DNA of 64,000 nt. It comes from Patescibacteria group bacterium. GTDB lineage: Bacteria; Patescibacteriota; Minisyncoccia; Moranbacterales; UBA2206. Each line of letters opens with the position of its first letter. Positions within the stretch are counted from its first letter, which is position 1. The notes below the pieces were generated by a model. The model was given only the letters and a program-made list of their open reading frames with translations, had not been told where the DNA came from and did no database searches. The translations under genes were made by a program, and so were the position numbers. Of the stretch, positions 21,646 through 53,320 are shown piece after piece. The stretch spans positions 5,884 through 69,883 of the forward strand of contig JAKLIG010000005.1 of assembly GCA_022709735.1 (NCBI GenBank). Reading direction: 5' to 3'.

Positions 21646-21674
21646 TTGACTTCTTAATCAGATTGTTATATATT
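21646..21674 (+). promoter_or_regulatory. Sigma70-like promoter TTGACT-17-TATATT for the small membrane protein gene
   Basis: Near-consensus -35/-10 with 17-nt spacing, about 50 nt upstream of the ATG at 21727. Confidence 0.45.
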
Positions 21675-21726
21675 GCCCTGTCAGAACATAGTTTAAAAAA
21701 TATAAATCAAAATATAGGGGGGGATA

Positions 21727-21924
21727 ATGAGAAAAAAGGTTAAAGAAAATGATTACGCTATCTATGCAATCATTGGCATATATTTGCTAATATCGATAGC
21801 TTGGACAATAGAAGCTTTTTTCCAAGAGGAAATTCCTCTTGTGCCAATAATCAATGTGCCGATATCCATGCTTATTGGCTCAATAACCATTTTCCGTCTC
21901 ATCTGGCTATTGAGAAAAAAATGA
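21727..21924 (+). CDS. Small two-TM membrane protein (65 aa)
   Basis: Hydrophobic ORF with a promoter upstream and a strong terminator downstream. Confidence 0.5.
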   Translation: MRKKVKENDYAIYAIIGIYLLISIAWTIEAFFQEEIPLVPIINVPISMLIGSITIFRLIWLLRKK

Positions 21925-21941
21925 AAAGCCAGATGAGCGAT

Positions 21942-21984
21942 CCATTCCGGATTTGATATCGAAATATCAAATCCGGAATTTTTA
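21942..21984 (+). terminator. Rho-independent terminator (perfect 15-bp stem TTCCGGATTTGATAT / ATATCAAATCCGGAA + T-run)
   Basis: Read directly from the sequence. Confidence 0.75.
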
Positions 21985-22006
21985 TTTCATCTGCAATTTT
22001 CGAAGT
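21979..22006. repeat. Short copy (U1) of the uvrB 3'-end sequence (TTTATTTCATCTGCAATTTTCGAAG)
   Basis: Matches 24056-24082 and 22625-22651. Confidence 0.6.
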
Positions 22007-22077
22007 TATACACAGAACAAAAAAACAAAACTGCTAAACTTATTTTATATGTCTAGCAGTTTTAACGGCAACTCTTT

Positions 22078-22284
22078 TTATTTTTTATCCCCAAACAAGA
22101 AGGTTCTACTCCCTGTTTGTGGCGGAAGCTGTCGCCAGGGCTTAGCAACTCTTACATCTTCCGCAATAATGGAATCCAACACTTGCTCTATTTCTGTTTT
22201 TTTTGGCATTCTGCCAAACCTATTAGAAATTTCAGCAAGTTTTTTGGCCATTCTAAAACCAGTTGAGGCTTTAAGCGAATTCAT
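22078..22284 (-). CDS. Small ribbon-helix-helix-like protein, paralog A (68 aa)
   Basis: A beta-strand/helix/helix pattern at the N-terminus (LKASTGFRMAKKLAEISNRFG...KKTEIEQVLDSIIAEDV). It is a tandem paralog of the next ORF (shared ...EDV..A......P.Q.G.RTFL). Confidence 0.4.
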   Translation of the reverse strand: MNSLKASTGFRMAKKLAEISNRFGRMPKKTEIEQVLDSIIAEDVRVAKPWRQLPPQTGSRTFLFGDKK

Positions 22285-22311
22285 AATACCTCCTTAAATT
22301 TAATATGGTGG

Positions 22312-22533
22312 CTATTTACAGCCATACCTCATTTGCCCAAAACCTAAAAAAGTTCTGGTCCCTGCTTGGATGGGTCCCTGCTTGGATGTTTCAGCTGCTT
22401 CCACATCCTCTTTGACAATAGAAGCAACTAGTTGCGCTATTTCTCCTCTCGTAGGCTTTCTTTTAAAAAGACTAAGAAATTTTTTTAATTTCTTTTTTAA
22501 TCTGTTATCAAATGAAGCGCACATTGAATCCAT
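22312..22533 (-). CDS. Small ribbon-helix-helix-like protein, paralog B (73 aa)
   Basis: Alignable with paralog A (MDSMCASFDNRLKKKLKKFLSLFKRKPTRGEIAQLVASIVKEDV...GTRTFL). Confidence 0.4.
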   Translation of the reverse strand: MDSMCASFDNRLKKKLKKFLSLFKRKPTRGEIAQLVASIVKEDVEAAETSKQGPIQAGTRTFLGFGQMRYGCK

Positions 22534-22621
22534 AGAAACCTCCCTTCAAAATAGGTTAATAAATCGATAATAATTTTAAGTTACTTCCTAAATGGTAATG
22601 CCCTTTCGAAAAATTTGCAAT

Positions 22622-22667
22622 TTTTTATTTCATCTGCAATTTTCGAAGCTCCCCAATTTCATCCCAA
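22622..22667. repeat. 46-bp relic copy (U2) of the uvrB 3' terminus including its stop codon
   Basis: About 92% identical to 24053-24103. On the minus strand it would encode IWDEIGELRKLQMK*, against the uvrB C-terminus IIRDEIGELRKLQMK*. Confidence 0.7.
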
Positions 22668-22678
22668 ATAAAAATCAA

Positions 22679-41483: not shown

Positions 41484-42449
41484 CTAACTCTTAACTTCCT
41501 TATATTCCTCCGCTATCTTTTTGACATCCTCGACCTTTACTTCAGGAATTATTTTGCACTTTTTTGATTTTTTATTCTTGCCAACGCATTCCATTCTAGC
41601 CTTGCTCGATGCTTCATCCATAAGATCTATCGCTTTGTCCGGAAAAGACCGGCCAGGAAGCATTTTCTCTGATTGCTCTATGCAAGAAGCGAGAACTTTC
41701 TCTGAAATTCTAACATTATGAAAAGCTTCGTATTTTGTTTTTACTCCCTTGAGTATTTCTAAAGTCTCCTTTTTACTTGGTTCATTCACAAAAATCGGCT
41801 GCATTCTTCTCTTGAAAGCCAAGTCAACATGGAAATATTGGTCATATTCTTCTTTGGTCGTTGCCCCCACTATTTGAAGCTCTCCTCTGGCCATCGCCGG
41901 CTTGAAAATATCGCCGACTGAAACAGATTCGCCCGAGCTTTCCGCTTGGATAAGATTGTGAATTTCATCAATAAAAAGAATTATATTTCTTTTTGATTTG
42001 GATATTTCTTCCGTAAGTTTTCGCACTCTTTCTTCAAATTCACCCCGATATTTTGTCCCAGCCAAAAGCGCGTTAAGATCAAGCATCAAAACTCTTTTTC
42101 CAAAAAGACTAGGCGGAACATTTTTTGCAAAAACATTATGCGCCAATCCTTCAACAATCGCAGTTTTTCCCACTCCGGCCTCGCCGATAAGCACAGCATT
42201 ATTTTTTGTCCTTCGGCTTAGGACCATTATCAAATGATTTATTTCTTTTTGTCGGCCGACCACTGGATCAAGTTCATTCCTTCTGGCCGATTCCGTAATA
42301 TCCTTGGAAAAACTATTTATAATCGGCGTAGAAACAAATAAACTGGAAGATTTATTTCTCGAAAATTTAAATACCAAATAGCCTAAAATAATAATTCCTG
42401 CTATAGCTAGAAAAGAGATGGGATCAAAATGCCCGGAAAATATATTCAT
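41484..42449 (-). CDS. Membrane-anchored AAA+ ATPase resembling a lone Clp/Hsp100 D1 domain
   Basis: N-terminal TM. GEAGVGKTAIVEGLAHNV ... KYRGEFEERVRKL ... ILFIDEIHNL ... GELQIVGATT match ClpA/B/C NBD1. Only 321 aa. Confidence 0.6.
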   Translation of the reverse strand: MNIFSGHFDPISFLAIAGIIILGYLVFKFSRNKSSSLFVSTPIINSFSKDITESARRNELDPVVGRQKEINHLIMVLSRRTKNNAVLIGEAGVGKTAIVEGLAHNVFAKNVPPSLFGKRVLMLDLNALLAGTKYRGEFEERVRKLTEEISKSKRNIILFIDEIHNLIQAESSGESVSVGDIFKPAMARGELQIVGATTKEEYDQYFHVDLAFKRRMQPIFVNEPSKKETLEILKGVKTKYEAFHNVRISEKVLASCIEQSEKMLPGRSFPDKAIDLMDEASSKARMECVGKNKKSKKCKIIPEVKVEDVKKIAEEYKEVKS

Positions 42450-42508: not shown

Positions 42509-44245
42509 TTACCAGCCTCCTCCGCCTCCGCCACCTCCGCCACCTCCTGATCCTCCTCCGCCACCAGCGCCAGAACCAGATGAAGAAGTGTTGGAACTTA
42601 CGCTAGAAGATATACTGTTCAATTTTGAAGTAAAACTGTCCGTATCAAAAGAAGCTAAATTGCCTGCGCTTCCAACATACCAGACCGGATGATAATTTTT
42701 GAAATAATCTGCTCCATATATTTCTTCCATTTTCTTTGCCCACTCCTTGGCAATGCCGAAAACTATGGCATAGGGCAGAAATTTTTCAAAAATATTTTCT
42801 TTTTCATAAAACTTTTGGCGGTATTTTTCCGCCGTTTCCATATATAATTTGAAGCCTTTTATCTTCCAATTCAGTTCCGCACCCATCGGTGTTCGTTTCG
42901 CCATAAAAAGACCAAAAATAAACAAAATCAGTCCTGATAATCCAACACCGGACCCCCAATAGATACTCACAAAAAATAAAAAGAAACTCACAATAAAACT
43001 AACGATTGCCAAAACGATAAAGCCTATCTTATAATTCAATCCTCTCTTGGTAATCCAGCCTCTGTCAATTATGTCTTTTTCCGCCCTCTCTTCTATTTGG
43101 CTTAATTTTTCGTTAAAATTGTTTTTGAGTGAAGAAAGTTCGATAGATTTTCTCCCCCCAAGCATCTTTTTTAGAATTAAATTTTCAATTGCATCCTTAT
43201 TGCTTGTTTCATAATCATCTTTTATGAGTTTTATTTTTATATCTTTTAATTTAAAAAAGGTGACTTTTTTTTCTGTTTCTTCGATAATTATTATTTTTTT
43301 GACTGCCAAATTGATAATTGCCGCTGAAATAAATTCATTACTGAAAGATCCGTTATCCATCACCATCCCCATTTGAATCGGCGTAATATTTTCAGGAATT
43401 CCAAATTCCGGAATTATTGTCTTTTTTATGCGAGGATCTTTTCCATATTTTACCCAAGTTTTAAAACAAAAGAAAAATATTAAAATTGGCAAAAAAACTG
43501 CCAAAATCCAATGCCATTTTTCCCAAAATGGTGGCTCATAAGGAATGAAGATGTTTTTTGGAAAAGTGACAGAGACGGTCACTCCTTGGCGCTCGTATAT
43601 TGTTCCGAGAGAATTAAATTCCAAAATATTTTTATCCGTCCATTTATACTCTGCCAAATTTTTATCTTTACTGTTAAGAATACCGGTATAATATTCCACT
43701 TGGCTATTTTTGTTGTCCACAACTTCTGGAAAAATAATTTTTACCTTAAATTTATCTATATCAATATCCCAAAAATTTCCAGTTAAATTCCAATACCATT
43801 CGTCAAATTGGGGATCATCAAATATTATCGCGTTTTCGATCTTATAAGTAATTTTGTAATAATTTACCCCATTCACTGTTTTGTCTGCATCTCCAATTTT
43901 CCAAGTAATCGTATTATTTGTAGTATCTTTTATTGTTTTATAATTTAATGATTTTCCATCAAAGTCAGTGATACTTATCAAACTCACGGGCATTTTCACC
44001 GTTTTTTTGGTTGTTTTCCAAGCAGTCGGCAAAACGCGAAAAATTCCATGCTTCCCCGGCAAATTCCCGCAATCCGCCGTTATCTTTTCGGTAATAAGTA
44101 GCGTCGAGTCTTCGTTTACTTTTATTTCCGACTCAAAATCCAGAATATACCAATCGGTGATGTTTTCACGAGCTTCGGAAAAAAACGGAATAAAAAGAAA
44201 CAGGCTAAAAAACAATAGGCCTATTATTTTATTAATTTTTTTCAT
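42509..44245 (-). CDS. DUF2207-family membrane protein with a C-terminal Gly-rich tail
   Basis: Signal peptide, large ectodomain, TM segments, C-terminal SSSGSGAGGGGGSGGGGGGGGGGGW. Confidence 0.55.
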   Translation of the reverse strand: MKKINKIIGLLFFSLFLFIPFFSEARENITDWYILDFESEIKVNEDSTLLITEKITADCGNLPGKHGIFRVLPTAWKTTKKTVKMPVSLISITDFDGKSLNYKTIKDTTNNTITWKIGDADKTVNGVNYYKITYKIENAIIFDDPQFDEWYWNLTGNFWDIDIDKFKVKIIFPEVVDNKNSQVEYYTGILNSKDKNLAEYKWTDKNILEFNSLGTIYERQGVTVSVTFPKNIFIPYEPPFWEKWHWILAVFLPILIFFFCFKTWVKYGKDPRIKKTIIPEFGIPENITPIQMGMVMDNGSFSNEFISAAIINLAVKKIIIIEETEKKVTFFKLKDIKIKLIKDDYETSNKDAIENLILKKMLGGRKSIELSSLKNNFNEKLSQIEERAEKDIIDRGWITKRGLNYKIGFIVLAIVSFIVSFFLFFVSIYWGSGVGLSGLILFIFGLFMAKRTPMGAELNWKIKGFKLYMETAEKYRQKFYEKENIFEKFLPYAIVFGIAKEWAKKMEEIYGADYFKNYHPVWYVGSAGNLASFDTDSFTSKLNSISSSVSSNTSSSGSGAGGGGGSGGGGGGGGGGGW

Positions 44246-44304: not shown

Positions 44305-45543
44305 ATGCCAATTTTTAATTTTCCTACTAAAAAAAACATCTCTATTTTAGCTCTTGGCGCTGAATCAGCCGGAAACTTTTCCGTTTTCAATAAAGGAAAA
44401 ATTTATTTTTCCGAAGATTTTGGAGATTTGCTAGAAGAAAAAAACTGGAAAAAATTTCAGTCGGCAGTTTTGAAATATTTAAAAGATAATAAAATTAAGC
44501 CTGAAATAATTCTGACTGACCTTCACCCTCTTTTTAAAACTACCCTCTGGGGGAAAGAATTAGCCAAAAAATATGGCGCAAAACATATTCCAGTCCAGCA
44601 TCATATATCCCACACTTTTTCTTCTGTCGGCGATAGCTTCCTTAAGACACCCGGTGTCTTGAGTTTTAGACACCGGGTGTCTAAAACTTTTTATGGGATT
44701 GCTTTAGACGGCACCGGTTTTGGAACTGATGAAAAAATTTGGGGTGGAGAAGTTTTTAAGGGGAAAATGTCCGCAAGACAAAAGGGGTTAAGTGTTGAAA
44801 GAATTGGCCATCTTGAAAATCAAATTATGATTGGTGGAGATTTAGCAATAAAAGAGCCAGCCAGAATGCTAATTAGTATTTTGAATAAGTTTTTAAGTAA
44901 AAAAGAAATTTATTCTTTCGTTAAAAAATATTATACCCAAAACGAATTTGAATTAATTTATAATCAGCTAGCGCAAAATTTCAATTGCCTTGAAACTTCC
45001 AGCGCTGGAAGAGTTTTGGACGCCGTTTCGATTCTTTTAGGATTTTGCGGCAATGCTAGAAAATACAAGCACGAACCAATTGATAAATTAGAAAAAAATT
45101 CAACAAAACCATATACAGATTTAAGGCCTAAAATAGATAATAACTGCGAATTACAAATTACTTACTTATTTAATTACTTAATAAATTACTTGCATAAACG
45201 GGATAGAAAACGCCTCGCCGCCACTGCCCAGTTATATATTGCTCAAGGTTTATATAAAATAATTGAATTAGCGCGTCATCCTGATCCGCCAACTGGCGGA
45301 GAAGGATCTGCCTACAAAAATCTCAAGCTTAATAATTGTCGCAAAACAAAAAGTATCACAAAGCAGATTCTTCACAGCACTTCGCTTGTTCAGAATGACG
45401 ATGTTTTTATTTCCGGCGGCCTGACTAATAATAAAATAATTTCTTCTTTTTTGGAATCTAAGGGCGCTTATATAAACAAAAAAATCCCGCGTGGCGACGC
45501 CGGAATTTCTTTCGGACAATTGGTCTACTATTTATCTTCCTAA
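44305..45543 (+). CDS. hypF: HypF-like carbamoyltransferase, C-terminal Kae1-like domain only
   Basis: GIALDGTGFGTDEKIWGGE (HypF ALDGTGYG.DG.IWGGE) and C-terminal SGGLTNNKI...PRGDAGISFGQL (HypF SGGVFQN...P.NDGGISLGQ). Acylphosphatase, Zn-finger and YrdC domains are absent. Confidence 0.5.
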   Translation: MPIFNFPTKKNISILALGAESAGNFSVFNKGKIYFSEDFGDLLEEKNWKKFQSAVLKYLKDNKIKPEIILTDLHPLFKTTLWGKELAKKYGAKHIPVQHHISHTFSSVGDSFLKTPGVLSFRHRVSKTFYGIALDGTGFGTDEKIWGGEVFKGKMSARQKGLSVERIGHLENQIMIGGDLAIKEPARMLISILNKFLSKKEIYSFVKKYYTQNEFELIYNQLAQNFNCLETSSAGRVLDAVSILLGFCGNARKYKHEPIDKLEKNSTKPYTDLRPKIDNNCELQITYLFNYLINYLHKRDRKRLAATAQLYIAQGLYKIIELARHPDPPTGGEGSAYKNLKLNNCRKTKSITKQILHSTSLVQNDDVFISGGLTNNKIISSFLESKGAYINKKIPRGDAGISFGQLVYYLSS

Positions 45544-45646
45544 CATTCGATGTTAGGAATAATTGCTACTACATATAGGCGAATGGTAGTAAAAATAAAA
45601 CAAGGCGGGAACAATAATTTTACTTGTTCTCGCCTTGCGCAACTTG

Positions 45647-46270
45647 TCAGTGACCTATTTTTAATTTATCGCCCTCCTTTATGAGAGCACAGGTCTGATA
45701 AAAGAAAGAACTGCTTTCCAGTACCCGATTCATTGATTTTTTGAATTTTCTCATGTTGGGCAGTGTAATTAGAAAATCCACTTCTCCAACATGATTGAGA
45801 TGGAAGAATGGGGACTCCCACCCATCAGCGGTTTTTTTCGCATAAATGAGATAACAACCACCTATGCGAACCCATTTGCACAGGACAAACCAGGTACTTC
45901 CCAATTTTAGCGAGAAAATGATTCCCGCCGTCAACGATACAACATATAGCAGTGCGAAGTCTAATGTTTTTGGTAACGACAACGAGTAGCCTAACCCCAT
46001 AAGTAAAACTATCAGGGATAAACTACACCGAAAAAATACTGATATGCATTTTTGTGGTCCGGAGTATTTATTCACAACATACAGCGTTGTCGGAAATACA
46101 TAAAATGCTACAGTACACAACATTAATACATCGGCAATTTCCGCAAGGGAAAATATTTTTAAAAAAATAAAATATCCGATATACAACGCGACAAACAGCA
46201 TATCTCCCAGTTCATTTTTCCAATTTTTCATTATGTATGTTCTTCCCATGATCCACACCCTTTCTCTCAT
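45647..46270 (-). CDS. Hypothetical membrane protein (about 200 aa)
   Basis: Several TM helices, no motif recognised. Confidence 0.4.
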   Translation of the reverse strand: MRERVWIMGRTYIMKNWKNELGDMLFVALYIGYFIFLKIFSLAEIADVLMLCTVAFYVFPTTLYVVNKYSGPQKCISVFFRCSLSLIVLLMGLGYSLSLPKTLDFALLYVVSLTAGIIFSLKLGSTWFVLCKWVRIGGCYLIYAKKTADGWESPFFHLNHVGEVDFLITLPNMRKFKKSMNRVLESSSFFYQTCALIKEGDKLKIGH

Positions 46271-46390
46271 TTAGAATGAGAATTTTAAAGTACGACATCT
46301 GACCAGTGAAATACTGCTCGAAATCTCGAGTTAACCTGCGATCGCAGGATAAAATCAGATATCCTACTGTATCATACTTTTTATTATTTG

Positions 46391-47404
46391 TCAACAGATC
46401 CTTGGAATCAACTTCCCTCTTGGCACTTCGATTTTTTTTATGCTTCCTATTTTAGTTTTGAGCCAAACGCCGTTGCCTTTTTCAACTTCGCCGATAATCT
46501 TGGCGCCGGCATTATATTTTTGAAGAATTTTGATGACTTTTTGAGAATTATTTTTAGAAACTGTCGCCATAAATCGCCCTTCGGATGGGAAAGAAAATAC
46601 ATCTATGCCTAAGAGTTCTGAAATCGCAACAGTTTCTTTTTTAAACGGCAAAGTTTTTTCTTCCAAAATAAATTTAGTCTTAGATTTTTCTGACATTTCA
46701 TTTAATACCGCCGCTGTTCCGCCTCGCGTTGGATCTTTCGCCGAAGTTAGAAATTTTTCCACGCTTTGAATTTCTCGAGTTAGTGACTGGCAATCGCTTT
46801 TTATTTTCGTTTGATAATTAAACCTTTTGGAAAGAAGCGCTACGGCATGTTCGCCTAAATCTCCGGAAGCTATAATTACATCTCCAACTTTCGCTCCATC
46901 ATTAGAAATTATTTTTTTGGCAATCCCAACTCCGGAAGTTGTAATTTCAATTTTGTCTATTTTTCCTTTCTCTGTTACTTTCGTGTCCCCCGTCACGATT
47001 GGCACATTTTCTTTTTTAGAAATTTCTTGGATTGATTGAATTATTTTTCTCAAATCGCTTTCCGGAAATCCTTCTTCAATCACAATACTTAATGATAGCC
47101 CAATCGGACGCGCGCCCATAACAGAGAGGTCATTTATCGTCCCGCAAATAGCAATTTTGCCAATGTCCCCTCCTGAAAAAAATAATGGATCAATAATAAA
47201 AGCGTCCGTCGTGAAAACTAAATTATTTTGCTTCGTAGAGACGCAATTAATTGCGTCTCTACCTAAATCAAAAACTGCTCCATCATCTTTTGTATTTTTC
47301 CACTTTCCTTTGACACTCAAAACTTTTCTTATATTTGAAATAAGTTCTTCTGACTTTTTACCTCCTGCCCCCATTTCTAATTCAATTGTTTTATTCTCAT
47401 CCAT
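46391..47404 (-). CDS. hypE: Hydrogenase maturation protein HypE
   Basis: AIR-synthase-related fold, FTTDAFIIDPLFFSGGDIGKIAICGTINDLSVMGARP, IVTGDTKV, and the characteristic C-terminal PRIC. Confidence 0.85.
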   Translation of the reverse strand: MDENKTIELEMGAGGKKSEELISNIRKVLSVKGKWKNTKDDGAVFDLGRDAINCVSTKQNNLVFTTDAFIIDPLFFSGGDIGKIAICGTINDLSVMGARPIGLSLSIVIEEGFPESDLRKIIQSIQEISKKENVPIVTGDTKVTEKGKIDKIEITTSGVGIAKKIISNDGAKVGDVIIASGDLGEHAVALLSKRFNYQTKIKSDCQSLTREIQSVEKFLTSAKDPTRGGTAAVLNEMSEKSKTKFILEEKTLPFKKETVAISELLGIDVFSFPSEGRFMATVSKNNSQKVIKILQKYNAGAKIIGEVEKGNGVWLKTKIGSIKKIEVPRGKLIPRIC

Positions 47405-48428
47405 AACGATATTCTACATTACAACTTCCTTCTCTTGAAACCATGCAAGCTCCTTGCGGATTATCTGGCGTACAAACTTTTCTAAAAAGCGGACAATTTT
47501 TCGGCTCAATTATCCCTTGCAAAACTTCTCCACAATGACAAACACTAGGCTTGTTTTTTATATTTTTTTTAATTTTAGCAATCAATTCTCTGTGAATAAA
47601 TTCAGCATCTTGGTTTTTATATTTCTTTTTAATTTTAAGTCCAGAATTTTTAATTTCTCCCAAGCCCCTCCATCTGGCATTTTTGGCTTCAAAAACTTTG
47701 GAAATTAATTTCTGCGCTTTTTTATTTCCTTCTTTTTGCACAAGTCTCGCATATTCATTTTCTACTTTTTTTTCTTTTTTGGTTATTTGATCTAATAGCA
47801 TATCAATTGCTTTGATCACGTCCGTTGCGGAAAATCCGGCTACTACCTGGGGAATTTTAAATTTTTTATAAATCTCTGCACCGATTATCACACTCACATG
47901 TCCAGGATTAATAAAGCCGTCAATTTTAATTTTATTATTTCGTAGCAAGGCTCTCATCGCTGGCGGAAAAATTTTATGCGAAGAAAAAACCTTGAGACCA
48001 TTTTGAATTCCCCAAGCCGTCATTGGCGCGGTTGTTTCAAAGCCAATTCCCCAAAATATTAAATCAGGATTTTTTTTAGAAATTTTTAAAGCTTCTGAAA
48101 TATCATAAACAATATAAATTTCAGCTCCTTGTTGTCTGGCGTTTTCTAAACTTCCCAGATTTCCCGGGATATTAGCCGAATCGCCATAGCAGGCGATTGG
48201 AATGCCGGAAAGCGCAAGGCCAGTTATAATATCGACATCGCTTTGATCTGCCACGCAAACTGGACAGCCCGGACCGGAAATCATTTTTATATTTTTTGGC
48301 AAAATATTTTTTATTCCATATTTGGCAATTGTTTCACTGTGCGTTCCGCAAAGTTCCATAAGCCTAATCGGCCGTCTTATTATTTTCGCTTTTTCTTGAA
48401 TGTTTTTTAAAATTTTTTTATACTTCAT
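47397..48428 (-). CDS. hypD: Hydrogenase maturation protein HypD
   Basis: CGTH, GPGCPVCV and C-terminal CxCGxxL...CPxF...CTP..P.GACMVS.EG.C motifs. Confidence 0.88.
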   Translation of the reverse strand: MKYKKILKNIQEKAKIIRRPIRLMELCGTHSETIAKYGIKNILPKNIKMISGPGCPVCVADQSDVDIITGLALSGIPIACYGDSANIPGNLGSLENARQQGAEIYIVYDISEALKISKKNPDLIFWGIGFETTAPMTAWGIQNGLKVFSSHKIFPPAMRALLRNNKIKIDGFINPGHVSVIIGAEIYKKFKIPQVVAGFSATDVIKAIDMLLDQITKKEKKVENEYARLVQKEGNKKAQKLISKVFEAKNARWRGLGEIKNSGLKIKKKYKNQDAEFIHRELIAKIKKNIKNKPSVCHCGEVLQGIIEPKNCPLFRKVCTPDNPQGACMVSREGSCNVEYRYG

Positions 48429-48624
48429 TTTTTAAATAAGCTTTTATTTCTTTTGCATTATCTTTATCCATTTTTTCAATTGCAAATCCGGCATGTACCA
48501 TTACATAGTCGCCAATTTTTGCCGAAATTAGACTAATATTTATTTCTTTTTTCATGCCTTGAAAATCAACTATTGCCAGTTGATTTTTGATTTTTATTAT
48601 TTTTCCAGGAATTGCCAAACACAT
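48418..48624 (-). CDS. hypC: Hydrogenase assembly chaperone HypC
   Basis: Starts MCLAIPGKII. The ORF-track N-terminal extension (MQGCSILFLL...) is encoded by repeat element D1. Confidence 0.8.
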   Translation of the reverse strand: MCLAIPGKIIKIKNQLAIVDFQGMKKEINISLISAKIGDYVMVHAGFAIEKMDKDNAKEIKAYLKNEV

Positions 48625-48660
48625 GCCAATTTTGTCTGCGAACATAGTGAGCAGGAACAA

Positions 48661-48788
48661 AATTGAGCATCCCTGCACTAATTCACAAATTAAACTTTTT
48701 ATTAAAATATAACTAAGCCGTAGGCGATTCCGTGGAATAATTTTTACATTAAATAAAATCTCTATTCGGAATTAGTGCGGGATCGCCA
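48661..48788. repeat. Intercistronic repeat family D, copy D1 (about 125 bp, terminal inverted repeats GCATCCCTGCACTAATTC ... GAATTAGTGCGGGAT)
   Basis: Aligns along its length with 62470-62598 (D2). Both have 15-17-bp terminal inverted repeats and an internal AGCCGYAGGCGAATTC core. Confidence 0.7.
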
Positions 48789-48794
48789 GTCAAC

Positions 48795-49832
48795 TCACAA
48801 ACGAATTTTTCCTGTCTTTATCTTCTCCTTATCCCTAACCAGTCTTGCCACTTCCCTTTCAGAAAGCACATAATCTAAAAACTCGTTTTTATTTTTCTTT
48901 TTGTATATTTTGGAAGAGATGAAAAATACTGCGATGTCAGCTGGATTTATTTTTTCTTGCTTCGCATAATCAGTTTTAATTTGCTTTATAATTTCATCTT
49001 CGTTATCTTTGTCCTTTTCTGATAAACTTATAATTTTCTCAAAACCTAAATTAATTAGCAATTTATTCAAATCTTTCTCCGGGCTTATGCCAATTTTAAT
49101 TTGCTCTAATATTTTTTCTTCTATCCCAAAATCCAAAACTGCTACAGAAAATTTCTTGAGATCATCTAGTGTTTCTACAATTTCCCCATAATTATTTTGA
49201 TCCATAAGCGAAGCAGTCGGGCAAACTCGAACGCACTCCCCACAAAAACTGCAATCCAAAACTTTTTCATAAGGCGTCCCGACCACAATGTCACTTCCTC
49301 TGTGATTAAACCCAAAAGCTTTTTCTGGACAAACATTTATGCACTTCCGGCATTCCACGCAAAATTCGCTGTTTCTGGAAATGCATGGGTTTTCATTTTC
49401 CACTACGACTCTTGTCCAGTTGTCGCGTATCAAATCTAGCTCTTCCTGGCCAGTTATCTCGCCCTTTCTCGGAATAAAATGAAAATTTTCAATTTTATAT
49501 TCCTCGGCCAAACTTTGCAATTTGCACATTCGGTTTTTCTTGCAAGTCGCGCATTTTCCGGCATGATCTGCCCAAAGCAGTTCCAAATTAATTCTCCTAG
49601 CCTTGTCTATATTCTCGCTTTCGGTAATAATTTCCATCCCTTCCGCCACTTTCGTGTTGCAGGATGTCATTAATTTTCCATTAATTTCCACCACGCAAAT
49701 TCGGCATAATCCTTCCTGAAATTCTTTGCTCGAACACAAAGTGGGAATTTTTATTCCATTATTTTTACAAACTTTAAATATCCCCTCTCCCTCTTTCGCT
49801 TCGTAAATTTTATTGTTGATTTTTATTTCCAT
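48795..49832 (-). CDS. Iron-sulfur subunit resembling NuoG N-terminus / HoxU (2Fe-2S + His-ligated 4Fe-4S + two 4Fe-4S ferredoxin motifs), no H-cluster domain
   Basis: Cys patterns C..C...C (2Fe-2S), HAGKCATCKKNRMC, CVECRKCINVCP, CSFCGECVRVCP. The C-terminal about 110 aa has no cysteines. Confidence 0.65.
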   Translation of the reverse strand: MEIKINNKIYEAKEGEGIFKVCKNNGIKIPTLCSSKEFQEGLCRICVVEINGKLMTSCNTKVAEGMEIITESENIDKARRINLELLWADHAGKCATCKKNRMCKLQSLAEEYKIENFHFIPRKGEITGQEELDLIRDNWTRVVVENENPCISRNSEFCVECRKCINVCPEKAFGFNHRGSDIVVGTPYEKVLDCSFCGECVRVCPTASLMDQNNYGEIVETLDDLKKFSVAVLDFGIEEKILEQIKIGISPEKDLNKLLINLGFEKIISLSEKDKDNEDEIIKQIKTDYAKQEKINPADIAVFFISSKIYKKKNKNEFLDYVLSEREVARLVRDKEKIKTGKIRL

Positions 49833-51061
49833 ATTTTTAATTTTTCCACTGCGTCTTGAAACGCAGTTGCCGAAAATTTTCCCAGCGGGCAAAATGTAGT
49901 ATTATTCAGCGTCCACAAAATATCTTTAACCGCTTCTTTGTCTCTATCAGAAATTTTATTGTCCCGAAATCTTTTAGCAATTTCCCAAAGCCTAAAAGTT
50001 CCTTCCCGGCACGGCACGCATTTCCCGCAGGATTCCCGCCGAAAAAAATCCGTCCAAGAAATCAGAAGGTCGTGAATATTCACACTTTTATCAACCACTA
50101 AAATTGAACCGGAACCCATTTGTACGGACAGGTCGCGACCTGTCCCTACGCTGAAATTTAATTTTGCATCCAATTCTTTTTCCAAAAACAATTTTCCGCA
50201 TGCTCCGCCAATTTGCGCAAACCAAAATTCTTTTCCCTTTTGAATTCCGCCAGCATATTCTTCAATTAATTCTTTGACTGTTATCCCGGTCGGTGCTTCA
50301 TAAACTCCCGGATTCTTGACTGCTCCGCTTAGAATAAATAATTTTGTCCCAGGCGAATTTTTCGCGCCAATCTTTGCATATTCTTTTCCGCCCTGCAAAA
50401 TTATCCAGGGAATATTAGAAATAGTTTCGGCATTATTCACTGCTGTCGGACAACCAAATAATCCAGCCTGGGTAGGATAAGGCGGACGGTATTTTGGTTC
50501 TCCACGATTGCCTTTGATGGAGTTTATAAGCGCCGTTTCCTCTCCGCAGATATAAGCCCCGGCGCCAGAAAAAATTTCAATTTCCAAATTATATTCTGAA
50601 CCTAAAATATTTTCTCCCCAATATTTTTTTTCTTTGGCCTGCTCTATCGCTCTTTCCAAAATTTCTTTTTGTTTTTCAAAATTTCCATTAATATAGATAT
50701 AAGCGCGTTTCGCACCAATAGAAAGCGCGGAAATTATTATTCCTTCCAAAAGCAAATGTGGATTATTATCTACGATTAATCTATCTTTGTATGTTCCCGG
50801 TTCTGATTCTTCCAAGTTGCAGATAAAATATTTTTCCGCTTTAGGATTATTTGCTACCGACTCTAATTTATTTCCAGTTGAAAAGCCCGCTCCTCCTCTT
50901 CCGCAAAGCCCGGATTTTTTAATTTCTTCCACCACTTCTTCCGGTTTCATTTTCGAAATAAATTTTCCAAGCGCTTCATATCCGCCAACTCCAAGATAGT
51001 CTTCTATTTTTAGAGGATCTATTTTTCCCCAGTGTTCAGTTATGATTTTTATATCTTTCAC
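49823..51061 (-). CDS. NuoF/HoxF-like flavoprotein subunit (NADH-binding, FMN, 4Fe-4S)
   Basis: GLCGRGGAGFSTGNK, FMN/NADH motifs, and a C-terminal CGKCVPCREG cluster motif. GTG start. Confidence 0.8.
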   Translation of the reverse strand: MKDIKIITEHWGKIDPLKIEDYLGVGGYEALGKFISKMKPEEVVEEIKKSGLCGRGGAGFSTGNKLESVANNPKAEKYFICNLEESEPGTYKDRLIVDNNPHLLLEGIIISALSIGAKRAYIYINGNFEKQKEILERAIEQAKEKKYWGENILGSEYNLEIEIFSGAGAYICGEETALINSIKGNRGEPKYRPPYPTQAGLFGCPTAVNNAETISNIPWIILQGGKEYAKIGAKNSPGTKLFILSGAVKNPGVYEAPTGITVKELIEEYAGGIQKGKEFWFAQIGGACGKLFLEKELDAKLNFSVGTGRDLSVQMGSGSILVVDKSVNIHDLLISWTDFFRRESCGKCVPCREGTFRLWEIAKRFRDNKISDRDKEAVKDILWTLNNTTFCPLGKFSATAFQDAVEKLKIWK

Positions 51062-51062
51062 A

Positions 51063-51170
51063 GAATTTTTAATTTTATAATTTTATAATTTTTAAATAAT
51101 TTCTAATGCTAAAATTTTTAAACATTAAAAATTAATATTTATTTATAAAATTAAAAATTCAAAAATTACA
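51063..51170. repeat. Intercistronic AT-rich repeat family A/B, copy A (about 105 bp) between the NuoE-like and NuoF-like genes
   Basis: About 92% identical over about 100 bp to 58258-58372. It begins 2 nt from the NuoF-like start codon. Confidence 0.7.
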
Positions 51171-51175
51171 AAATT

Positions 51176-51589
51176 TTACAAATATTCTTCCAAAATATCC
51201 CGTAGCTTGCTCAAATTAACTTTTTCATAAATTTTTCCATTCACAATCATAATTGGCCCCTCGCCACATTTCCCCAAACAACTTATTTCTTCTGCTTTTA
51301 TTTTGAATGAATTTTCAATTTCTCTGATTATTTCAAAAGAATTGTTGACCGCGCAATTGGCCGAAGAACACACTTGAATCAAAATTTGCGGTTGTTTTTT
51401 TGTTTTTACTAAATCATAAAAACTGGCCGTTTCAAAAACTTTACTTTGGGGGATAGAAAAATAACCAGCGATTTTCTGCGCATCTTCTTCGCTCACATAA
51501 CCAAAAGTGGCGCTAGTTTTTTTTAGCGCCGGAAGTAAATTTTCTACTTTAGGTTCAAATTCCAGAAGTATTTTTTGTATTGTTTGCAT
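51176..51589 (-). CDS. NuoE/HoxE-like thioredoxin-fold 2Fe-2S subunit
   Basis: CSSANCAVNNS ... CLGKCGEGP four-Cys pattern. The likely start is MQTIQKI (51589). Confidence 0.7.
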   Translation of the reverse strand: MQTIQKILLEFEPKVENLLPALKKTSATFGYVSEEDAQKIAGYFSIPQSKVFETASFYDLVKTKKQPQILIQVCSSANCAVNNSFEIIREIENSFKIKAEEISCLGKCGEGPIMIVNGKIYEKVNLSKLRDILEEYL

Positions 51590-51603: not shown

Positions 51604-51686
51604 ACCCGAATTTACAAATGAACACTCGAATGATTCGAATGAATTCGGGACATTCGGATGAAGATTCGAGTTATTCGAGTCGCTTA
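51604..51686. repeat. Intercistronic repeat family C, copy C1 (about 80 bp) between fba stop and NuoE-like start
   Basis: About 90% identical to 60772-60852 and 61214-61293. Its end overlaps the fba stop codon. It lies 15 nt upstream of the downstream ATG, as the other two copies do. Confidence 0.75.
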
Positions 51687-52547
51687 AGCTTTGTCTTCGC
51701 TTCCAAAATATTTTATTTTCTGCTTAACCACTTCCTCGACTGCTTCTCTCGCTTCTTCCAAAAGCTTTCGAATATCAAAAGAAACTTCTTCTTTTTTTGC
51801 AGAGTTTATTATTCGATCGACAAAGGCCATTCTAATTGCCGTATCAACATTAAGACAACTTATTCCTCTTTTTATCACTTCCGCCACTTTTCCATTTTCC
51901 CAATCTGATGCGCCATGAAGAATGAGAGGAATACCTCCGCAAAGTTCATTTATCTTGCTCAGTCTTTCAAAATCCGGCTCTGATCTCTCTCTCACAAATC
52001 CATGCGCATTTCCAATCGCCACTGCCAGCGCGTCTATTCCGGTTTCTTTCACAAATCTTTCCGCTTCGTTTGGATCAGTCATATATTTTTCCCAATTTAT
52101 CTCCCGACTTCCTGCTTCTCCAAGATACGGAACGCTACCCAATTCTCCCTGAACATCGATTCCTTTTTCATGACAGAAATCAACAACTTTTTTTGTTGCT
52201 TCAACATTATCTTCATATTTTTTTCGCGAACCGTCATACATAACTGAAGTTAGACCAATTTCAGCGCAATGCTGGATAATTTCAAAACTTTTTCCGTGAT
52301 CAAGATGAATGCCGACTGGAATTTCTGGCGCATAAAATTCAACATCATTTTTTACTAAATGATAAATTAATCTGCCACCAGCATATTCCATGGTTTTTTC
52401 AGTAATCTGGATAATCACCGGCGAATGCATTTTTTTAGCCGCATCCACAATTGCTCTGGTCGTTTCTAAATTAACTGTGTTAAACGCTCCGACAGCGTAT
52501 CCTCCTTCTTTAGCTTTGGTTAGAATTTCTTTGACTGAAGTAATCAT
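51684..52547 (-). CDS. fba: Class II fructose-bisphosphate aldolase
   Basis: YAVGAFN, HLDHG, Zn ligands and the class II FBA/TBA fold. The likely start is MITSVKEIL. Confidence 0.8.
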   Translation of the reverse strand: MITSVKEILTKAKEGGYAVGAFNTVNLETTRAIVDAAKKMHSPVIIQITEKTMEYAGGRLIYHLVKNDVEFYAPEIPVGIHLDHGKSFEIIQHCAEIGLTSVMYDGSRKKYEDNVEATKKVVDFCHEKGIDVQGELGSVPYLGEAGSREINWEKYMTDPNEAERFVKETGIDALAVAIGNAHGFVRERSEPDFERLSKINELCGGIPLILHGASDWENGKVAEVIKRGISCLNVDTAIRMAFVDRIINSAKKEEVSFDIRKLLEEAREAVEEVVKQKIKYFGSEDKA

Positions 52548-52555
52548 ATTTTTTA

Positions 52556-53320
52556 TTAATTTATTATCTCTGCTATTTTTATAAACTCGTGCGGGGTCAA
52601 ACTTTCTCTTCCTACAAGAACTCCATCCAGCCCTGGTTTCAAACAAACTTGATCAACATTCAAAGAAGAAACGGAACCGCCATAAATAATTTTCACTTTT
52701 TCTGCATATTTTACTCCGAAAAGACCGGAGAGAATTTTTCGAATCAAAACTTTTGCTTCCATAATTTCATTTTCCGTAGGAATGACATCAGTTCCAACCG
52801 ACCAAATTGGTTCATAGGCAATGATAATATTTTCCGCTTTTGTCCGACTGATTTTTTCCAAAGCATTCTTGACTTGCTGACTGATAATTTTTAGCGTCTG
52901 TCCGCTATCTTTTTCTACCTTGGATTCTCCGACACAAATAATTGGCATGAGTCTATTCTTGAGCGCGGAAATAATTTTAAAATTTATTTCTTCATCCCGT
53001 TCACAAAAATATCTCCTTCTTTCGCTGTGCCCGACTATCACATATTCGCAACCAAAATTCTTAAGCATCAATGGAGAAATTTCTCCAGTATATGATCCTT
53101 TTTCTTCCCAAAACATATTTTGAGCACCAATTTTTGTTTTTTTTATTTTAGCTTTTTCAAATCCTTCCAGATGGATAGCCGGCGGGCAAAGAACAATTTC
53201 ACAATTTTTTATTTTTTTTCCGGCCAATTCTTTTTGAAAAAGTTCCAAATATTGGTCTCGCTCTGTCTTGGACAGTATATTCATTTTTAAGTTAGCTACG
53301 ATTATTTTATTCATTTTCAT
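52556..53320 (-). CDS. tpiA: Triosephosphate isomerase
   Basis: ANLKMN, VGHSERR, AYEPIWSVGTD. Confidence 0.85.
   Translation of the reverse strand: MKMNKIIVANLKMNILSKTERDQYLELFQKELAGKKIKNCEIVLCPPAIHLEGFEKAKIKKTKIGAQNMFWEEKGSYTGEISPLMLKNFGCEYVIVGHSERRRYFCERDEEINFKIISALKNRLMPIICVGESKVEKDSGQTLKIISQQVKNALEKISRTKAENIIIAYEPIWSVGTDVIPTENEIMEAKVLIRKILSGLFGVKYAEKVKIIYGGSVSSLNVDQVCLKPGLDGVLVGRESLTPHEFIKIAEIIN

What the first reader, a model, noticed from the sequence alone, without database searches (positions are those of the whole stretch)
44305..51589. Hydrogenase maturation genes (hypC, hypD, hypE, truncated hypF) next to a NuoE/F/G-like diaphorase trio, with no catalytic hydrogenase subunit
On the minus strand the order is NuoE-like, NuoF-like, NuoG/HoxU-like, hypC, hypD, hypE. 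A HypF-like gene lies nearby on the plus strand.

No [NiFe] large or small subunit is present. The NuoG-like protein has no H-cluster domain, so it is not an [FeFe] hydrogenase. HypF is represented only by its C-terminal Kae1-like half (412 aa); the acylphosphatase, Zn-finger and YrdC domains are missing.

The HypCDEF machinery makes the Fe(CN)2CO cofactor of [NiFe] enzymes. Its pairing with only a diaphorase module is unexpected. Either the catalytic subunits are encoded elsewhere, or the locus is a decaying remnant of a group 3 bidirectional hydrogenase. The N-terminal half of HypF may also be a separate gene.
Basis: partly seen in the sequence, partly recalled or inferred. Interest (0 to 1): 0.55.

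Follow-up and report, generated by a model that had tools for sequence, protein, structure and literature searches.

The report
Split hydrogenase gene cluster in Moranbacteria
The window holds the electron-transfer and cofactor-assembly genes of a soluble nickel-iron hydrogenase from a tiny uncultivated bacterium, and the two catalytic genes are not lost but lie on another contig of what is very probably the same genome, so this is an ordinary split gene cluster.

Summary
On the minus strand lie NuoE-, NuoF- and NuoG/HoxU-like genes followed by hypC, hypD and hypE. A 412-aa HypF with only the Kae1-like domain lies on the plus strand. No hydrogenase catalytic subunit occurs anywhere in the 64 kb.

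The "decaying remnant" reading is wrong. In other Moraniibacteriota (Patescibacteria/CPR) the same block continues directly into a [NiFe] small subunit, a large subunit, a HypA-like gene and GAPDH.

The window organism's two closest relatives share its split arrangement. In one of them (assembly JAURXY01) the large subunit is on a different contig.

For the window organism, an intact SSU-LSU-desulfoferrodoxin-HypA-GAPDH block opens contig DAOTEH010000004.1 of MAG GCA_035454065.1. Its NCBI protein accession (HRY82729) lies 98 after the window's HypF (HRY82631). Its tetranucleotide composition matches the window as well as the window matches itself.

The short HypF is the normal form in this lineage: at least 120 clusters, with catalytic motifs invariant. 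It resembles the single-domain HypF1 of Cupriavidus necator.

The trio looks like a non-bifurcating HydABC-type module whose HydA has lost its H-cluster. The large subunit is closest to group 3b.

Interest is modest.

The parts
51176..51589 (-). NuoE/HoxE/HydC-like thioredoxin-like [2Fe-2S] ferredoxin. It is 137 aa from the JGI start; the open frame extends to 51625.
   Evidence: PF01257, E=2e-27. TIGR01958 scores 82 bits, below its cutoff. The CxxxxC...CxxxC cysteines are present.
49823..51061 (-). NuoF/HoxF/HydB-like FMN- and NADH-binding subunit with a single [4Fe-4S] motif, 412 aa. It has no extra N- or C-terminal FeS domains.
   Evidence: PF01512, PF10531 and PF10589. It aligns to residues 115-507 of the 597-aa HydB of the A. 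mobile NiFe-HydABCSL enzyme, and full-length to Aquifex NuoF.
48795..49832 (-). NuoG/HoxU-like FeS protein, 345 aa. It corresponds to the N-terminal F-cluster part of a HydA-type [FeFe] hydrogenase, followed by a cysteine-free tail where the H-cluster domain would be.
   Evidence: PF13510, PF10588 and 4Fe-4S dicluster families. The best NCBIfam match is NF040763 (NADH-dependent [FeFe] hydrogenase A6), positions 2-266 of 571; HoxU is second. The best PDB match is 8A6T_A HydA1, residues 7-265. There is no Cys after the last ferredoxin motif.
48418..48624 (-). hypC, 68 aa from the MCLAIPG start. The start overlaps nothing, and the stop overlaps the hypD start.
   Evidence: PF01455, E=9e-27; TIGR00074, 78 bits against a cutoff of 48. 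The N-terminal Met-Cys is present. tblastn with a relative's HypC aligns to 48624-48436.
47397..48428 (-). hypD, 343 aa.
   Evidence: PF01924, E=2e-124; TIGR00075, 407 bits against a cutoff of 193. NCBI protein HRY82634.1.
46391..47404 (-). hypE, 337 aa, with the C-terminal PRIC.
   Evidence: TIGR02124, 335 bits against a cutoff of 252. Sequence. HRY82633.1.
45647..46231 (-). Orphan hydrophobic ORF (194 aa) between hypE and hypF. It is probably not part of the system.
   Evidence: No Pfam or NCBIfam hit. tblastn finds it only in copies of this same contig, not in any relative.
44305..45543 (+). Single-domain (Kae1-like only) HypF, 412 aa, transcribed divergently from the hypCDE block.
   Evidence: PF17788 and PF22521 only. 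It aligns to residues 400-754 of T. kodakarensis HypF 4G9I. There are at least 120 homologous clusters of 357-505 aa with the same two domains. The motifs HP, QHHxxH, DGTGxG...WGGE, SSxGRxLDA and GDxGxSxGQ are conserved in at least 98% of them. HRY82631.1.
44642..44688 (+). Near-perfect GC-rich hairpin inside the hypF coding sequence. It lies at a position where most family members have a gap.
   Evidence: Each 15-nt arm occurs only here in the window (expected by chance 0.02). Alignment gap at residues ~119-123.
41484..42449 (-). Membrane-anchored single-domain AAA+ (ClpA/B-like) ATPase. It is a neighbour of hypF that is conserved in the closest relatives. Its link to the hydrogenase is unknown.
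   Evidence: PF00004 and PF17871. 80-84% identity to the gene in the same position in L005 and L007.
51684..53320 (-). Class II fructose-bisphosphate aldolase (51684-52547) and triose-phosphate isomerase (52556-53320). They form the conserved upstream flank of the lineage's hydrogenase supercluster.
   Evidence: PF01116 and PF00121. TIM-FBA precede the nuo/hyp/SSU/LSU genes in most related loci.

Best explanation
The window carries the accessory half of a cytoplasmic, probably NADH-linked [NiFe] hydrogenase system that is typical of Moraniibacteriota (Patescibacteria/CPR).

The ancestral layout in the lineage is a single supercluster: TIM-FBA-[NuoE/F/G-like]-hypC-[hypD-hypE-hypF]-SSU-(M10 peptidase)-LSU-(desulfoferrodoxin)-hypA-GAPDH. 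In the window organism and its closest relatives a rearrangement has cut this layout between hypF and the small subunit. The SSU-LSU-HypA-GAPDH block now lies elsewhere in the genome, at the start of contig DAOTEH010000004.1 of MAG GCA_035454065.1.

Proposed mechanism (inferred, not shown):

- HypC, HypD, HypE and a Kae1-only HypF build the Fe(CN)2CO unit. HypF carbamoylates the C-terminal Cys of HypE, probably using carbamoyl-adenylate that it cannot make itself.
- A 90-aa HypA-like protein without zinc-site cysteines helps nickel insertion.
- The large subunit ends exactly at the His of DPCxxCxxH, so no C-terminal proteolysis is needed.
- The mature group-3b-like SSU/LSU dimer is proposed to dock onto the NuoE/F/G-like module. 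That module oxidises NADH at FMN and passes electrons through its FeS chain to the small subunit and the Ni-Fe site, releasing H2. This would regenerate the NAD+ used by the GAPDH encoded in the cluster.
- The NuoF-like subunit has only one FeS cluster, so the enzyme is predicted to be non-bifurcating.
For: Gene identities.

Synteny in relatives:
- L003 and L005 show the same TIM-FBA-NuoEFG-hypCDE|hypF block running into SSU-M10-LSU-HypA-GAPDH.
- Of 40 GTDB loci with at least 7 kb upstream of the SSU, 14 have the trio and 22 have hyp genes only. HypA follows the LSU in 52 of 53 loci.

The split is shared by a clade:
- The closest relatives, L007 and L008 (mean 73-75% aa identity), have the window's order of hypF-(AAA)-PGM with no SSU or LSU.
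- Assembly JAURXY01, which contains L007, carries the LSU on another contig, L039.

Same genome for the window organism:
- LSU P0245 is HRY82729.1, on GCA_035454065.1 contig 4. The window proteins are HRY82631, 82633, 82634 and 82637.
- The gap of 98 accessions fits the remaining genes of the window's ~130-kb contig, followed by the next-longest contig (117,880 bp).
- The tetranucleotide correlation of the LSU contig with the window is 0.992-0.993. That equals the window's own 12-kb pieces (0.989-0.995) and exceeds every foreign locus.

Intactness of the catalytic block: LSU L1 is RICGICPVVH and L2 is DPCISCAVH followed by the stop. The SSU cysteine motifs are present.

Classification:
- The LSU is closest to P. 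furiosus sulfhydrogenase I alpha (214 bits) against 116 bits for HoxH.
- The trio is closest to HydABC-type proteins.
- No sulfhydrogenase beta/gamma genes are seen next to the SSU in split or unsplit loci.

Short HypF: it is a conserved family with invariant motifs. C. necator HypF1 has only one of the three canonical HypF domains, and its authors suggest it needs carbamoyl-adenylate (PMC9100943).

Moranbacteria are already reported to carry group 3b [NiFe] hydrogenases (PMC10811913).
Against: The tools never showed the NCBI contig accession of the window itself. Same-MAG membership therefore rests on the accession series, contig-length order, composition and the relative's precedent. MAG binning can also be wrong.

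Physical association of the trio with the SSU/LSU is inferred from gene neighbourhood only. In 26 of 40 loci the trio is not within 10 kb of the LSU, so it may be an optional or independent module.

No source of carbamoyl-adenylate, and no HypB, was identified.

H2 evolution from NADH alone is thermodynamically feasible only at very low H2 pressure.
Confidence: 0.85

Rival explanations
1. Decaying remnant. The organism has lost its hydrogenase, and the hyp and diaphorase genes are on their way to becoming pseudogenes.
For: No catalytic subunit in the 64-kb window or in the 10 kb read beyond its far end. The syntenic position where relatives have SSU-LSU holds other genes.
Against: All seven genes are full-length, with scores above the equivalog cutoffs for HypD and HypE and with catalytic motifs intact. 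The same split arrangement is kept in at least three genomes that differ by about 25% in protein sequence. An intact LSU block exists in the same MAG and in the relative's assembly.
Confidence: 0.03
2. Mis-binning. The SSU-LSU contig belongs to another Moranbacterium in the digester community. The window organism would then use HypCDE, the short HypF and the NuoEFG-like trio for something other than a [NiFe] hydrogenase.
For: The link between the two contigs is indirect. The LSU contig was shown for JGI sample 3300010429, not for the window's sample 3300009776. The metagenome scan gave no Ga0116154 hit.
Against: The consecutive NCBI accession series fits the contig order and the gene count. 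The composition match is as good as within the window. The LSU is 83% identical to that of the closest relative, in line with the other proteins at 74-84%. The closest relative's assembly has the same two-contig layout. The metagenome scan relied on six exact 8-residue peptides, so a miss is weak evidence.
Confidence: 0.07
3. The NuoE/F/G-like trio is not a hydrogenase subunit set. It is a stand-alone NADH:acceptor (for example ferredoxin) oxidoreductase that merely sits beside the hyp genes. The SSU/LSU dimer would use another partner.
For: Only 14 of 40 LSU loci have the trio within 10 kb, and many have TIM-FBA-hypC-SSU-LSU with no trio. In the window genome the trio is unlinked from SSU/LSU.
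Against: When present, the trio is always inserted between FBA and hypC in the same supercluster. In four GTDB loci it lies immediately upstream of the SSU, with at most hypC in between, in a hoxEFU-hoxYH-like order. No alternative beta/gamma-type partner genes are seen next to the SSU. The NuoG-like protein derives from a hydrogenase subunit, HydA. A NiFe enzyme of exactly this subunit logic exists: A. mobile NiFe-HydABCSL (PMC8880783, PMC9304861).
Confidence: 0.15

Closest known systems
NiFe-HydABCSL of Acetomicrobium mobile (Bfu family; PDB 7T2R/7T30; PMC8880783, PMC9304861)
   Same: The subunit logic is the same. NuoE-, NuoF- and NuoG-like HydC/B/A are combined with a conventional group 3 [NiFe] small and large subunit, and HydA lacks the H-cluster. 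The LSU of the MAG hits 7T2R_D at 179 bits and the NuoF-like protein hits 7T2R_B at 348 bits.
   Different: The window's HydB-like subunit is 412 aa and aligns only to residues 115-507 of the 597-aa A. mobile HydB. It lacks the extra FeS clusters (B2-B5) that define bifurcating Bfu enzymes. The HydA-like subunit is 345 aa against 692 aa and matches weakly (75 bits). The genes are split over two loci.
Group 3b [NiFe] hydrogenase (Pyrococcus furiosus sulfhydrogenase I, T. kodakarensis cytosolic hydrogenase)
   Same: The large subunit of the MAG and its relatives is closest to these enzymes: 9E1J_B at 214 bits and 5YXY_A at 210 bits. The length is similar (419 aa). Moranbacteria hydrogenases are called group 3b in the literature (PMC10811913) and "sulfhydrogenase subunit alpha" by JGI.
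   Different: No beta (FeS) or gamma (FAD/NADPH) subunit genes accompany the SSU and LSU. A NuoEFG-like FMN module is found in the cluster instead. The LSU has no C-terminal extension.
Group 3d NAD-linked bidirectional hydrogenase (HoxEFUYH / soluble hydrogenase, e.g. PDB 5XF9)
   Same: A diaphorase of NuoE-, NuoF- and NuoG-N-terminal-like proteins is coupled to a [NiFe] dimer. The gene order in some relatives is trio-hypC-SSU-LSU.
   Different: HoxU and HoxE equivalog scores are far below their cutoffs: 122 against 333 and 68 against 224. The LSU matches HoxH much less well than it matches 3b enzymes (116 against 214 bits). The small subunit carries cysteines for three clusters, not the single-cluster HoxY type (from the sequence, plus general knowledge).
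Non-bifurcating NADH-dependent [FeFe] hydrogenase (group A6, Syntrophomonas wolfei Hyd1ABC type)
   Same: The best NCBIfam match of the NuoG-like protein is NF040763, "NADH-dependent [FeFe] hydrogenase, group A6" (182 bits). The flavoprotein has a single FeS cluster, as in non-bifurcating homologues (PMC9304861).
   Different: The H-cluster domain and all its cysteine motifs are absent. Catalysis must come from a separate [NiFe] dimer.
HypF1 of Cupriavidus necator (single-domain HypF)
   Same: It comprises only one of the three domains of canonical HypF and lies in a hyp operon. Its authors suggest it needs carbamoyl-adenylate rather than carbamoyl phosphate (PMC9100943).
   Different: C. necator also has a full-length HypF2 (my own knowledge; the tools did not check it), whereas no full-length HypF was seen in any Moraniibacteriota locus examined.

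Membership tests
HypCDE core of the [NiFe] Fe(CN)2CO maturation machinery | HypC with an N-terminal Cys directly after Met | tested here: met
   MCLAIPG... from start 48624. TIGR00074 scores 78.5 bits against a cutoff of 48.
HypCDE core of the [NiFe] Fe(CN)2CO maturation machinery | Full-length HypD above the equivalog cutoff, with the CGxH, GPGCPVC and GFETT motifs and the C-terminal Cys cluster | tested here: met
   TIGR00075 scores 407 bits against a cutoff of 192.8, covering model positions 19-366 of 372. The motifs are visible in the translation.
HypCDE core of the [NiFe] Fe(CN)2CO maturation machinery | HypE with the AIR-synthase-like fold and the C-terminal PRIC cysteine that is carbamoylated | tested here: met
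   TIGR02124 scores 335 bits against a cutoff of 251.6. The sequence ends ...LIPRIC.
Canonical full-length HypF (TIGR00143) | Acylphosphatase domain, two zinc-finger motifs, YrdC-like domain and Kae1-like domain in one protein | tested here: not met
   Only PF17788 and PF22521 are present. TIGR00143 scores 211 bits against a cutoff of 466, matching positions 385-683 only. No tandem zf-HYPF motif occurs in 2.19 Mb across 165 loci including the window.
Single-domain HypF (C. necator HypF1 type) | Kae1-like carbamoyltransferase domain alone, with the metal- and nucleotide-binding motifs retained, encoded with hypCDE | tested here: met
   Alignment to 4G9I residues 400-754. Motifs invariant in 120 family members. 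Precedent described in PMC9100943. Homology to HypF1 itself was not tested.
Group 3b [NiFe] hydrogenase | Large subunit with the L1 and L2 CxxC motifs and closest to 3b enzymes | tested here: met
   This was tested on the LSU of contig DAOTEH010000004.1, not in the window. It has RICGICPVVH and DPCISCAVH. The best PDB hits are sulfhydrogenase I alpha and the T. kodakarensis cytosolic hydrogenase. No formal HydDB or phylogenetic classification was run.
Group 3b [NiFe] hydrogenase | Beta (FeS) and gamma (FAD/NAD(P)-binding) subunits encoded with alpha and delta | tested here: not met
   No such genes flank the SSU and LSU in L003, L005, L162/L163, L039, L043 or L046.
Group 3d HoxEFUYH bidirectional hydrogenase | HoxE, HoxF and HoxU equivalogs plus a HoxH-type large subunit | tested here: not met
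   HoxU NF005745 scores 122 against a cutoff of 333, and HoxE NF005747 scores 68 against 224. The LSU hits HoxH 5XF9_D at only 116 bits against 214 for 3b. The domain-level architecture is nevertheless the same.
Bfu (HydABC-type) electron-bifurcating enzymes | BfuB with five FeS clusters (B1-B5) plus BfuC with one (PMC9304861) | tested here: not met
   The NuoF-like protein is 412 aa with a single CxxCxxC...C motif. It aligns to the core only (residues 115-507 of 7T2R_B and 151-539 of 7P5H_B).
[FeFe] hydrogenase | H-cluster domain with the TSCCP, MPCxxK and ExMxCxxGCxxG motifs | tested here: not met
   None of these motifs occurs in any frame of the window. The NuoG-like protein has no Cys after residue ~225. 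Its similarity to HydA ends near residue 268, before the H-cluster cysteine motifs would begin.

The most novel reading that the evidence does not exclude
Moraniibacteriota as a lineage may run a stripped-down, hybrid hydrogenase system that has not been characterised biochemically.

The enzyme would be a group-3b-like [NiFe] dimer wired to a non-bifurcating diaphorase derived from [FeFe]-HydABC, in which the HydA has lost its H-cluster.

It would be matured by a minimal Hyp set:
- HypC, HypD and HypE.
- A Kae1-only HypF.
- A 90-aa HypA without cysteines.
- No HypB.
- No endopeptidase, because the large subunit ends at the L2 histidine.

If so, the CN ligands would be made from carbamoyl-adenylate supplied in trans, for example by a Sua5/TsaC-type enzyme or by the host. 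That would be a route distinct from the canonical HypF pathway.
Probability: 0.4. Interest if true: 0.55.

Novelty: new member of a known kind. Interest (0 to 1): 0.3.

Why it matters
For this window the result is mainly a clarification. The apparent orphan maturation and diaphorase locus is one half of a split but complete hydrogenase system, so it should not be counted as evidence for hydrogenase loss or for a new use of Hyp proteins.

At lineage level, the conserved supercluster embeds a NADH-linked hydrogenase between glycolytic genes (TIM and FBA upstream, GAPDH downstream). This supports the view that these ultra-small fermenters dispose of glycolytic reducing equivalents as H2. That is relevant to their association with H2 consumers in anaerobic digesters and aquifers.

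The minimal Hyp set (single-domain HypF, zinc-less HypA, no HypB, no protease) offers a natural test of which maturation steps are dispensable.

Tried and rejected
1. I looked for the catalytic genes inside the window by motif regex in six frames, and by tblastn with relatives' LSU, SSU, M10, HypA, GAPDH and amidohydrolase. Nothing was found.

2. I extended beyond the window's far end. It holds only the ribosomal-protein operon, EF-Tu and EF-G. The look-up meant to reach beyond the near end returned only a Logan contig (L081) that ends inside the window, so it added no new sequence. A look-up of the 940-aa ORF failed because its TTG start is not the called start.

3. I tried to make the tools display the NCBI contig of the window through three look-ups. 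Only JGI and Logan copies were shown. I used NCBI protein accession numbers instead.

4. A metagenome scan with the closest relative's LSU gave 80 loci but none from the window's sample, Ga0116154. This is uninformative, because the scan depends on six exact 8-residue peptides.

5. I looked for a repeat or an rRNA at the contig break upstream of the SSU. There is no match to the window and no Rfam hit there.

6. Rfam on the whole window gave no hit, and no tRNAs were found.

7. I searched 2.19 Mb of related loci for a separate HypF N-terminal half using the tandem zinc-finger motif. None was found. YrdC and acylphosphatase domains could not be searched genome-wide.

8. A promoter and terminator scan of the locus was not above the shuffled expectation.

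9. I considered canonical group 3b with beta and gamma subunits lost at the contig break. I rejected this because split relatives with sequence upstream of the SSU show unrelated housekeeping genes there.

Full report
**Observation**

The minus strand carries, in order:

- a thioredoxin-like [2Fe-2S] NuoE-type protein (51176-51589);
- a 412-aa NuoF-type FMN/NADH subunit (49823-51061);
- a 345-aa NuoG/HoxU-type FeS protein (48795-49832);
- hypC (48418-48624), hypD (47397-48428) and hypE (46391-47404).

The plus strand carries a 412-aa HypF-like gene (44305-45543). Pfam and NCBIfam scores are far beyond chance. HypD and HypE exceed their equivalog cutoffs: 407 against 193 bits and 335 against 252 bits.

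The HypF-like protein matches only the two Kae1-like HypF families. That corresponds to positions 385-683 of the 741-position HypF model and to residues 400-754 of Thermococcus kodakarensis HypF.

No catalytic subunit is present in the window:

- No [NiFe] L1/L2 motif and no H-cluster motif occurs in any frame of the 64 kb.
- tblastn with relatives' catalytic subunits finds nothing.
- The remaining window genes are repair, glycolysis/sugar, translation and surface-protein genes.

**Source**

The window is part of JGI contig Ga0116154_10000225 (81,954 bp, metagenome 3300009776). The same sequence occurs in a Logan assembly and in an NCBI MAG named Candidatus Moranbacteria bacterium, with locus tags P5232_. 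GC content is 36%.

**What relatives show**

The short HypF is not a fragment. At least 120 protein clusters of 357-505 aa have the same two domains only. They come almost entirely from Moranbacteria, Parcubacteria and Patescibacteria, and they are 51-63% identical to the window protein. The motifs HP, QHHxxH, DGTGxG...WGGE, SSxGRxLDA and GDxGxSxGQ are conserved in at least 98% of them.

On two long contigs of relatives (L003, 485 kb; L005, 354 kb) the block TIM-FBA-NuoE-NuoF-NuoG-hypC-hypD-hypE|hypF is followed, on the far side of hypF, by:

- a [NiFe] small subunit (PF01058);
- an M10 peptidase;
- a 409-419-aa [NiFe] large subunit (PF00374);
- sometimes a desulfoferrodoxin;
- a HypA-like gene;
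- GAPDH and an amidohydrolase.

A scan of GTDB species genomes with that large subunit returned 70 loci, nearly all Moraniibacteriota or Parcubacteria, at 64-100% identity (one outlier at 47%). Mapping the window's proteins onto these loci gives a modular supercluster:

TIM-FBA-[NuoEFG]-hypC-[hypD-hypE-hypF]-SSU-[M10]-LSU-[Dfx]-HypA-GAPDH.

Among 40 loci with at least 7 kb upstream of the SSU:

- 14 carry the trio;
- 22 carry hyp genes only;
- 4 carry neither.

HypA follows the LSU in 52 of 53 loci.

**The split**

The window's two closest relatives have the window's own order: SBP-GPI-ManC-RNaseJ-aaRS-PGM-(AAA)-hypF | hypE-D-C-NuoG-F-E-FBA-TIM, with no SSU or LSU within 10 kb. They are:

- L007, assembly GCA_030654225.1 (JAURXY01), mean identity 74.5%;
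- L008, a GW2011 Moranbacterium, mean identity 73.3%.

JAURXY01 also appears in the large-subunit scan, but on a different contig (L039). There SSU-LSU-Dfx-HypA-GAPDH-amidohydrolase-MurL is intact and is preceded by YchF. The split arrangement is therefore a clade character, and in that clade the catalytic genes are simply elsewhere.

**The window organism's own catalytic genes**

A protein search with the L039 large subunit found P0245 (83% identity), named [quoted passage not shown]. It is the second gene on GCA_035454065.1 contig DAOTEH010000004.1 (117,880 bp). The order there is SSU, LSU, desulfoferrodoxin, 90-aa HypA-like, GAPDH, amidohydrolase, MurL.

Three lines of evidence tie this contig to the window's genome:

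- **Accession series.** The LSU is HRY82729.1. The window's HypF, HypE, HypD and NuoF are HRY82631.1, 82633.1, 82634.1 and 82637.1. Numbering rises toward the ribosomal operon. The 96 proteins between HypF and the SSU fit the rest of a ~130-kb contig, followed by the next-longest contig.
- **Composition.** The tetranucleotide composition of the LSU contig correlates with the window at 0.992-0.993. That is the same as the window's own 12-kb pieces (0.989-0.995) and better than any locus from another genome.
- **Intact genes.** The LSU carries RICGICPVVH and ends ...DPCISCAVH-stop. The SSU has its cysteine motifs.

I did not manage to have the window's own NCBI contig accession displayed. Same-genome membership is therefore very probable rather than proven.

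**What kind of hydrogenase**

The large subunit is closest to group 3b enzymes: P. furiosus sulfhydrogenase I alpha at 214 bits and the T. kodakarensis cytosolic hydrogenase at 210 bits. Next come the large subunit of A. mobile NiFe-HydABCSL (179), MvhA (170) and HoxH (116). No sulfhydrogenase beta or gamma genes accompany SSU/LSU in any locus inspected.

The NuoG-like protein is best matched by the N-terminal 266 positions of the "NADH-dependent [FeFe] hydrogenase, group A6" model (182 bits). It is also matched by HydA1 of the bifurcating [FeFe] hydrogenases (8A6T_A residues 7-265). HoxU scores lower, at 122 and 61 bits. Its similarity to HydA runs about 45 residues past the last ferredoxin motif and then gives way to a cysteine-free tail. 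I read this as an H-cluster-less descendant of HydA.

The NuoF-like protein has only the core, with one [4Fe-4S] motif. It aligns to residues 115-507 of the 597-aa A. mobile HydB. The Bfu family is defined by five FeS clusters in BfuB, and non-bifurcating homologues lack B2-B5 (PMC9304861). The module therefore fails the Bfu test, and I predict it is a plain NADH-oxidising diaphorase.

The overall subunit logic, HydC/B/A-like plus group 3 SSU/LSU, is that of NiFe-HydABCSL (PMC8880783). Here it appears in a minimal, presumably non-bifurcating form. The link between the trio and the SSU/LSU rests on gene neighbourhood and is an inference.

**Maturation**

HypC has the Met-Cys start. HypD has its motifs. 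HypE ends in PRIC.

The Kae1-only HypF lacks the acylphosphatase, zinc-finger and YrdC-like domains. No tandem HypF zinc-finger motif exists in 2.19 Mb of related loci.

There is a precedent. [quoted passage not shown] I therefore propose that the short HypF performs only the last step, transfer of the carbamoyl group to HypE-Cys, using carbamoyl-adenylate made by another enzyme. That enzyme was not identified.

The HypA-like protein of the MAG is 90 aa and has no cysteines. It scores just under the Pfam cutoff (27.6 against 28.9 bits). No HypB was seen in any annotated locus. The large subunit has no C-terminal extension, so no maturation protease is expected.

**Verdict**

- Supported: the catalytic subunits are encoded elsewhere.
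- Not supported: the locus is a decaying remnant, the HypF is a truncated fragment, and the pairing with a diaphorase is unexpected.

The locus is an ordinary member of a lineage-typical hydrogenase system whose gene cluster has been split by rearrangement. Group 3b hydrogenases in Moranbacteria are already in the literature (PMC10811913).

The residual interest lies at lineage level. It concerns the hybrid make-up of the enzyme (a 3b-like dimer with an H-cluster-less HydABC-type diaphorase) and the unusually small Hyp toolkit. I could document both only by sequence and synteny.

Noticed in passing
window 44642-44688 (+), inside hypF: A near-perfect GC-rich hairpin lies within the HypF coding sequence. 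Its arms are AGACACCCGGTGTCT and AGACACCGGGTGTCT, each itself palindromic, separated by 8 nt. It sits where most family members have an alignment gap. A second insertion specific to the window protein spans residues ~326-360. This may be an in-frame insertion of a small palindromic element.
   Followed up: partly
L003 6384-7325; L005 5813-6766 (and about 20 other related loci): A 313-317-aa Peptidase_M10 (metzincin, HELGHxLGxxH) gene lies between the [NiFe] small- and large-subunit genes in many Moraniibacteriota. It has an N-terminal hydrophobic segment and a coiled-coil-like middle. It is absent from the window organism's SSU-LSU block. Its role is unknown.
   Followed up: no
L163 941-2200 and 2757-3029; L005 3775-4047: The lineage's [NiFe] large subunit ends exactly at the His of DPCISCAVH, with no C-terminal extension to cleave. 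The adjacent HypA-like protein is only 90 aa and has no cysteines, so no zinc site. It starts MHD in L005/L003 and VHD, from a GTG start, in the window organism's copy. No HypB was seen in any annotated locus.
   Followed up: partly
L003 11117-12536: In one relative a reverse transcriptase (RVT_1) and a bAvd-like gene lie directly next to hypF. These are the hallmarks of a diversity-generating retroelement. They interrupt the hypE-hypF junction.
   Followed up: no
window 736-18347: Two UvrA paralogues (736-3558 and 15456-18347), together with UvrC (13336-14739), bracket four large consecutive genes of 886, 855, 789 and 436 aa. These have no confident Pfam hit, only weak PKD/Big_7/Flg_new_2 matches. 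They are probably cell-surface proteins.
   Followed up: no
window 20947-22678: This ORF-poor 1.7-kb stretch has no Rfam hit. It contains two small tandem paralogous ORFs on the minus strand (22078-22284, 68 aa; 22312-22533, 73 aa) that share a ...EDV..A....Q.P.Q.G.RTFL... motif.
   Followed up: no
window 42509-44245 and 45647-46231: Two genes are inserted into the otherwise conserved locus in this organism only. One is a DUF2207 membrane protein with a poly-Gly C-terminus, between hypF and the AAA ATPase. The other is an orphan 194-aa hydrophobic ORF between hypE and hypF.
   Followed up: partly
L162 1-152 / L163 1-80 / L084 start: Three independent assemblies all break their ~118-kb contig 80-150 bp upstream of the small-subunit gene. 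The first 72 nt are 89% identical to the equivalent position in UBA2206 (L040). No repeat, rRNA or tRNA was identified there.
   Followed up: partly
window 51684-53320; L163 3152-4147: Glycolytic genes flank the hydrogenase supercluster throughout the lineage. TIM and FBA lie upstream, and GAPDH lies immediately after HypA (46 of 53 loci). This suggests a functional link between NADH from glycolysis and H2 formation.
   Followed up: partly
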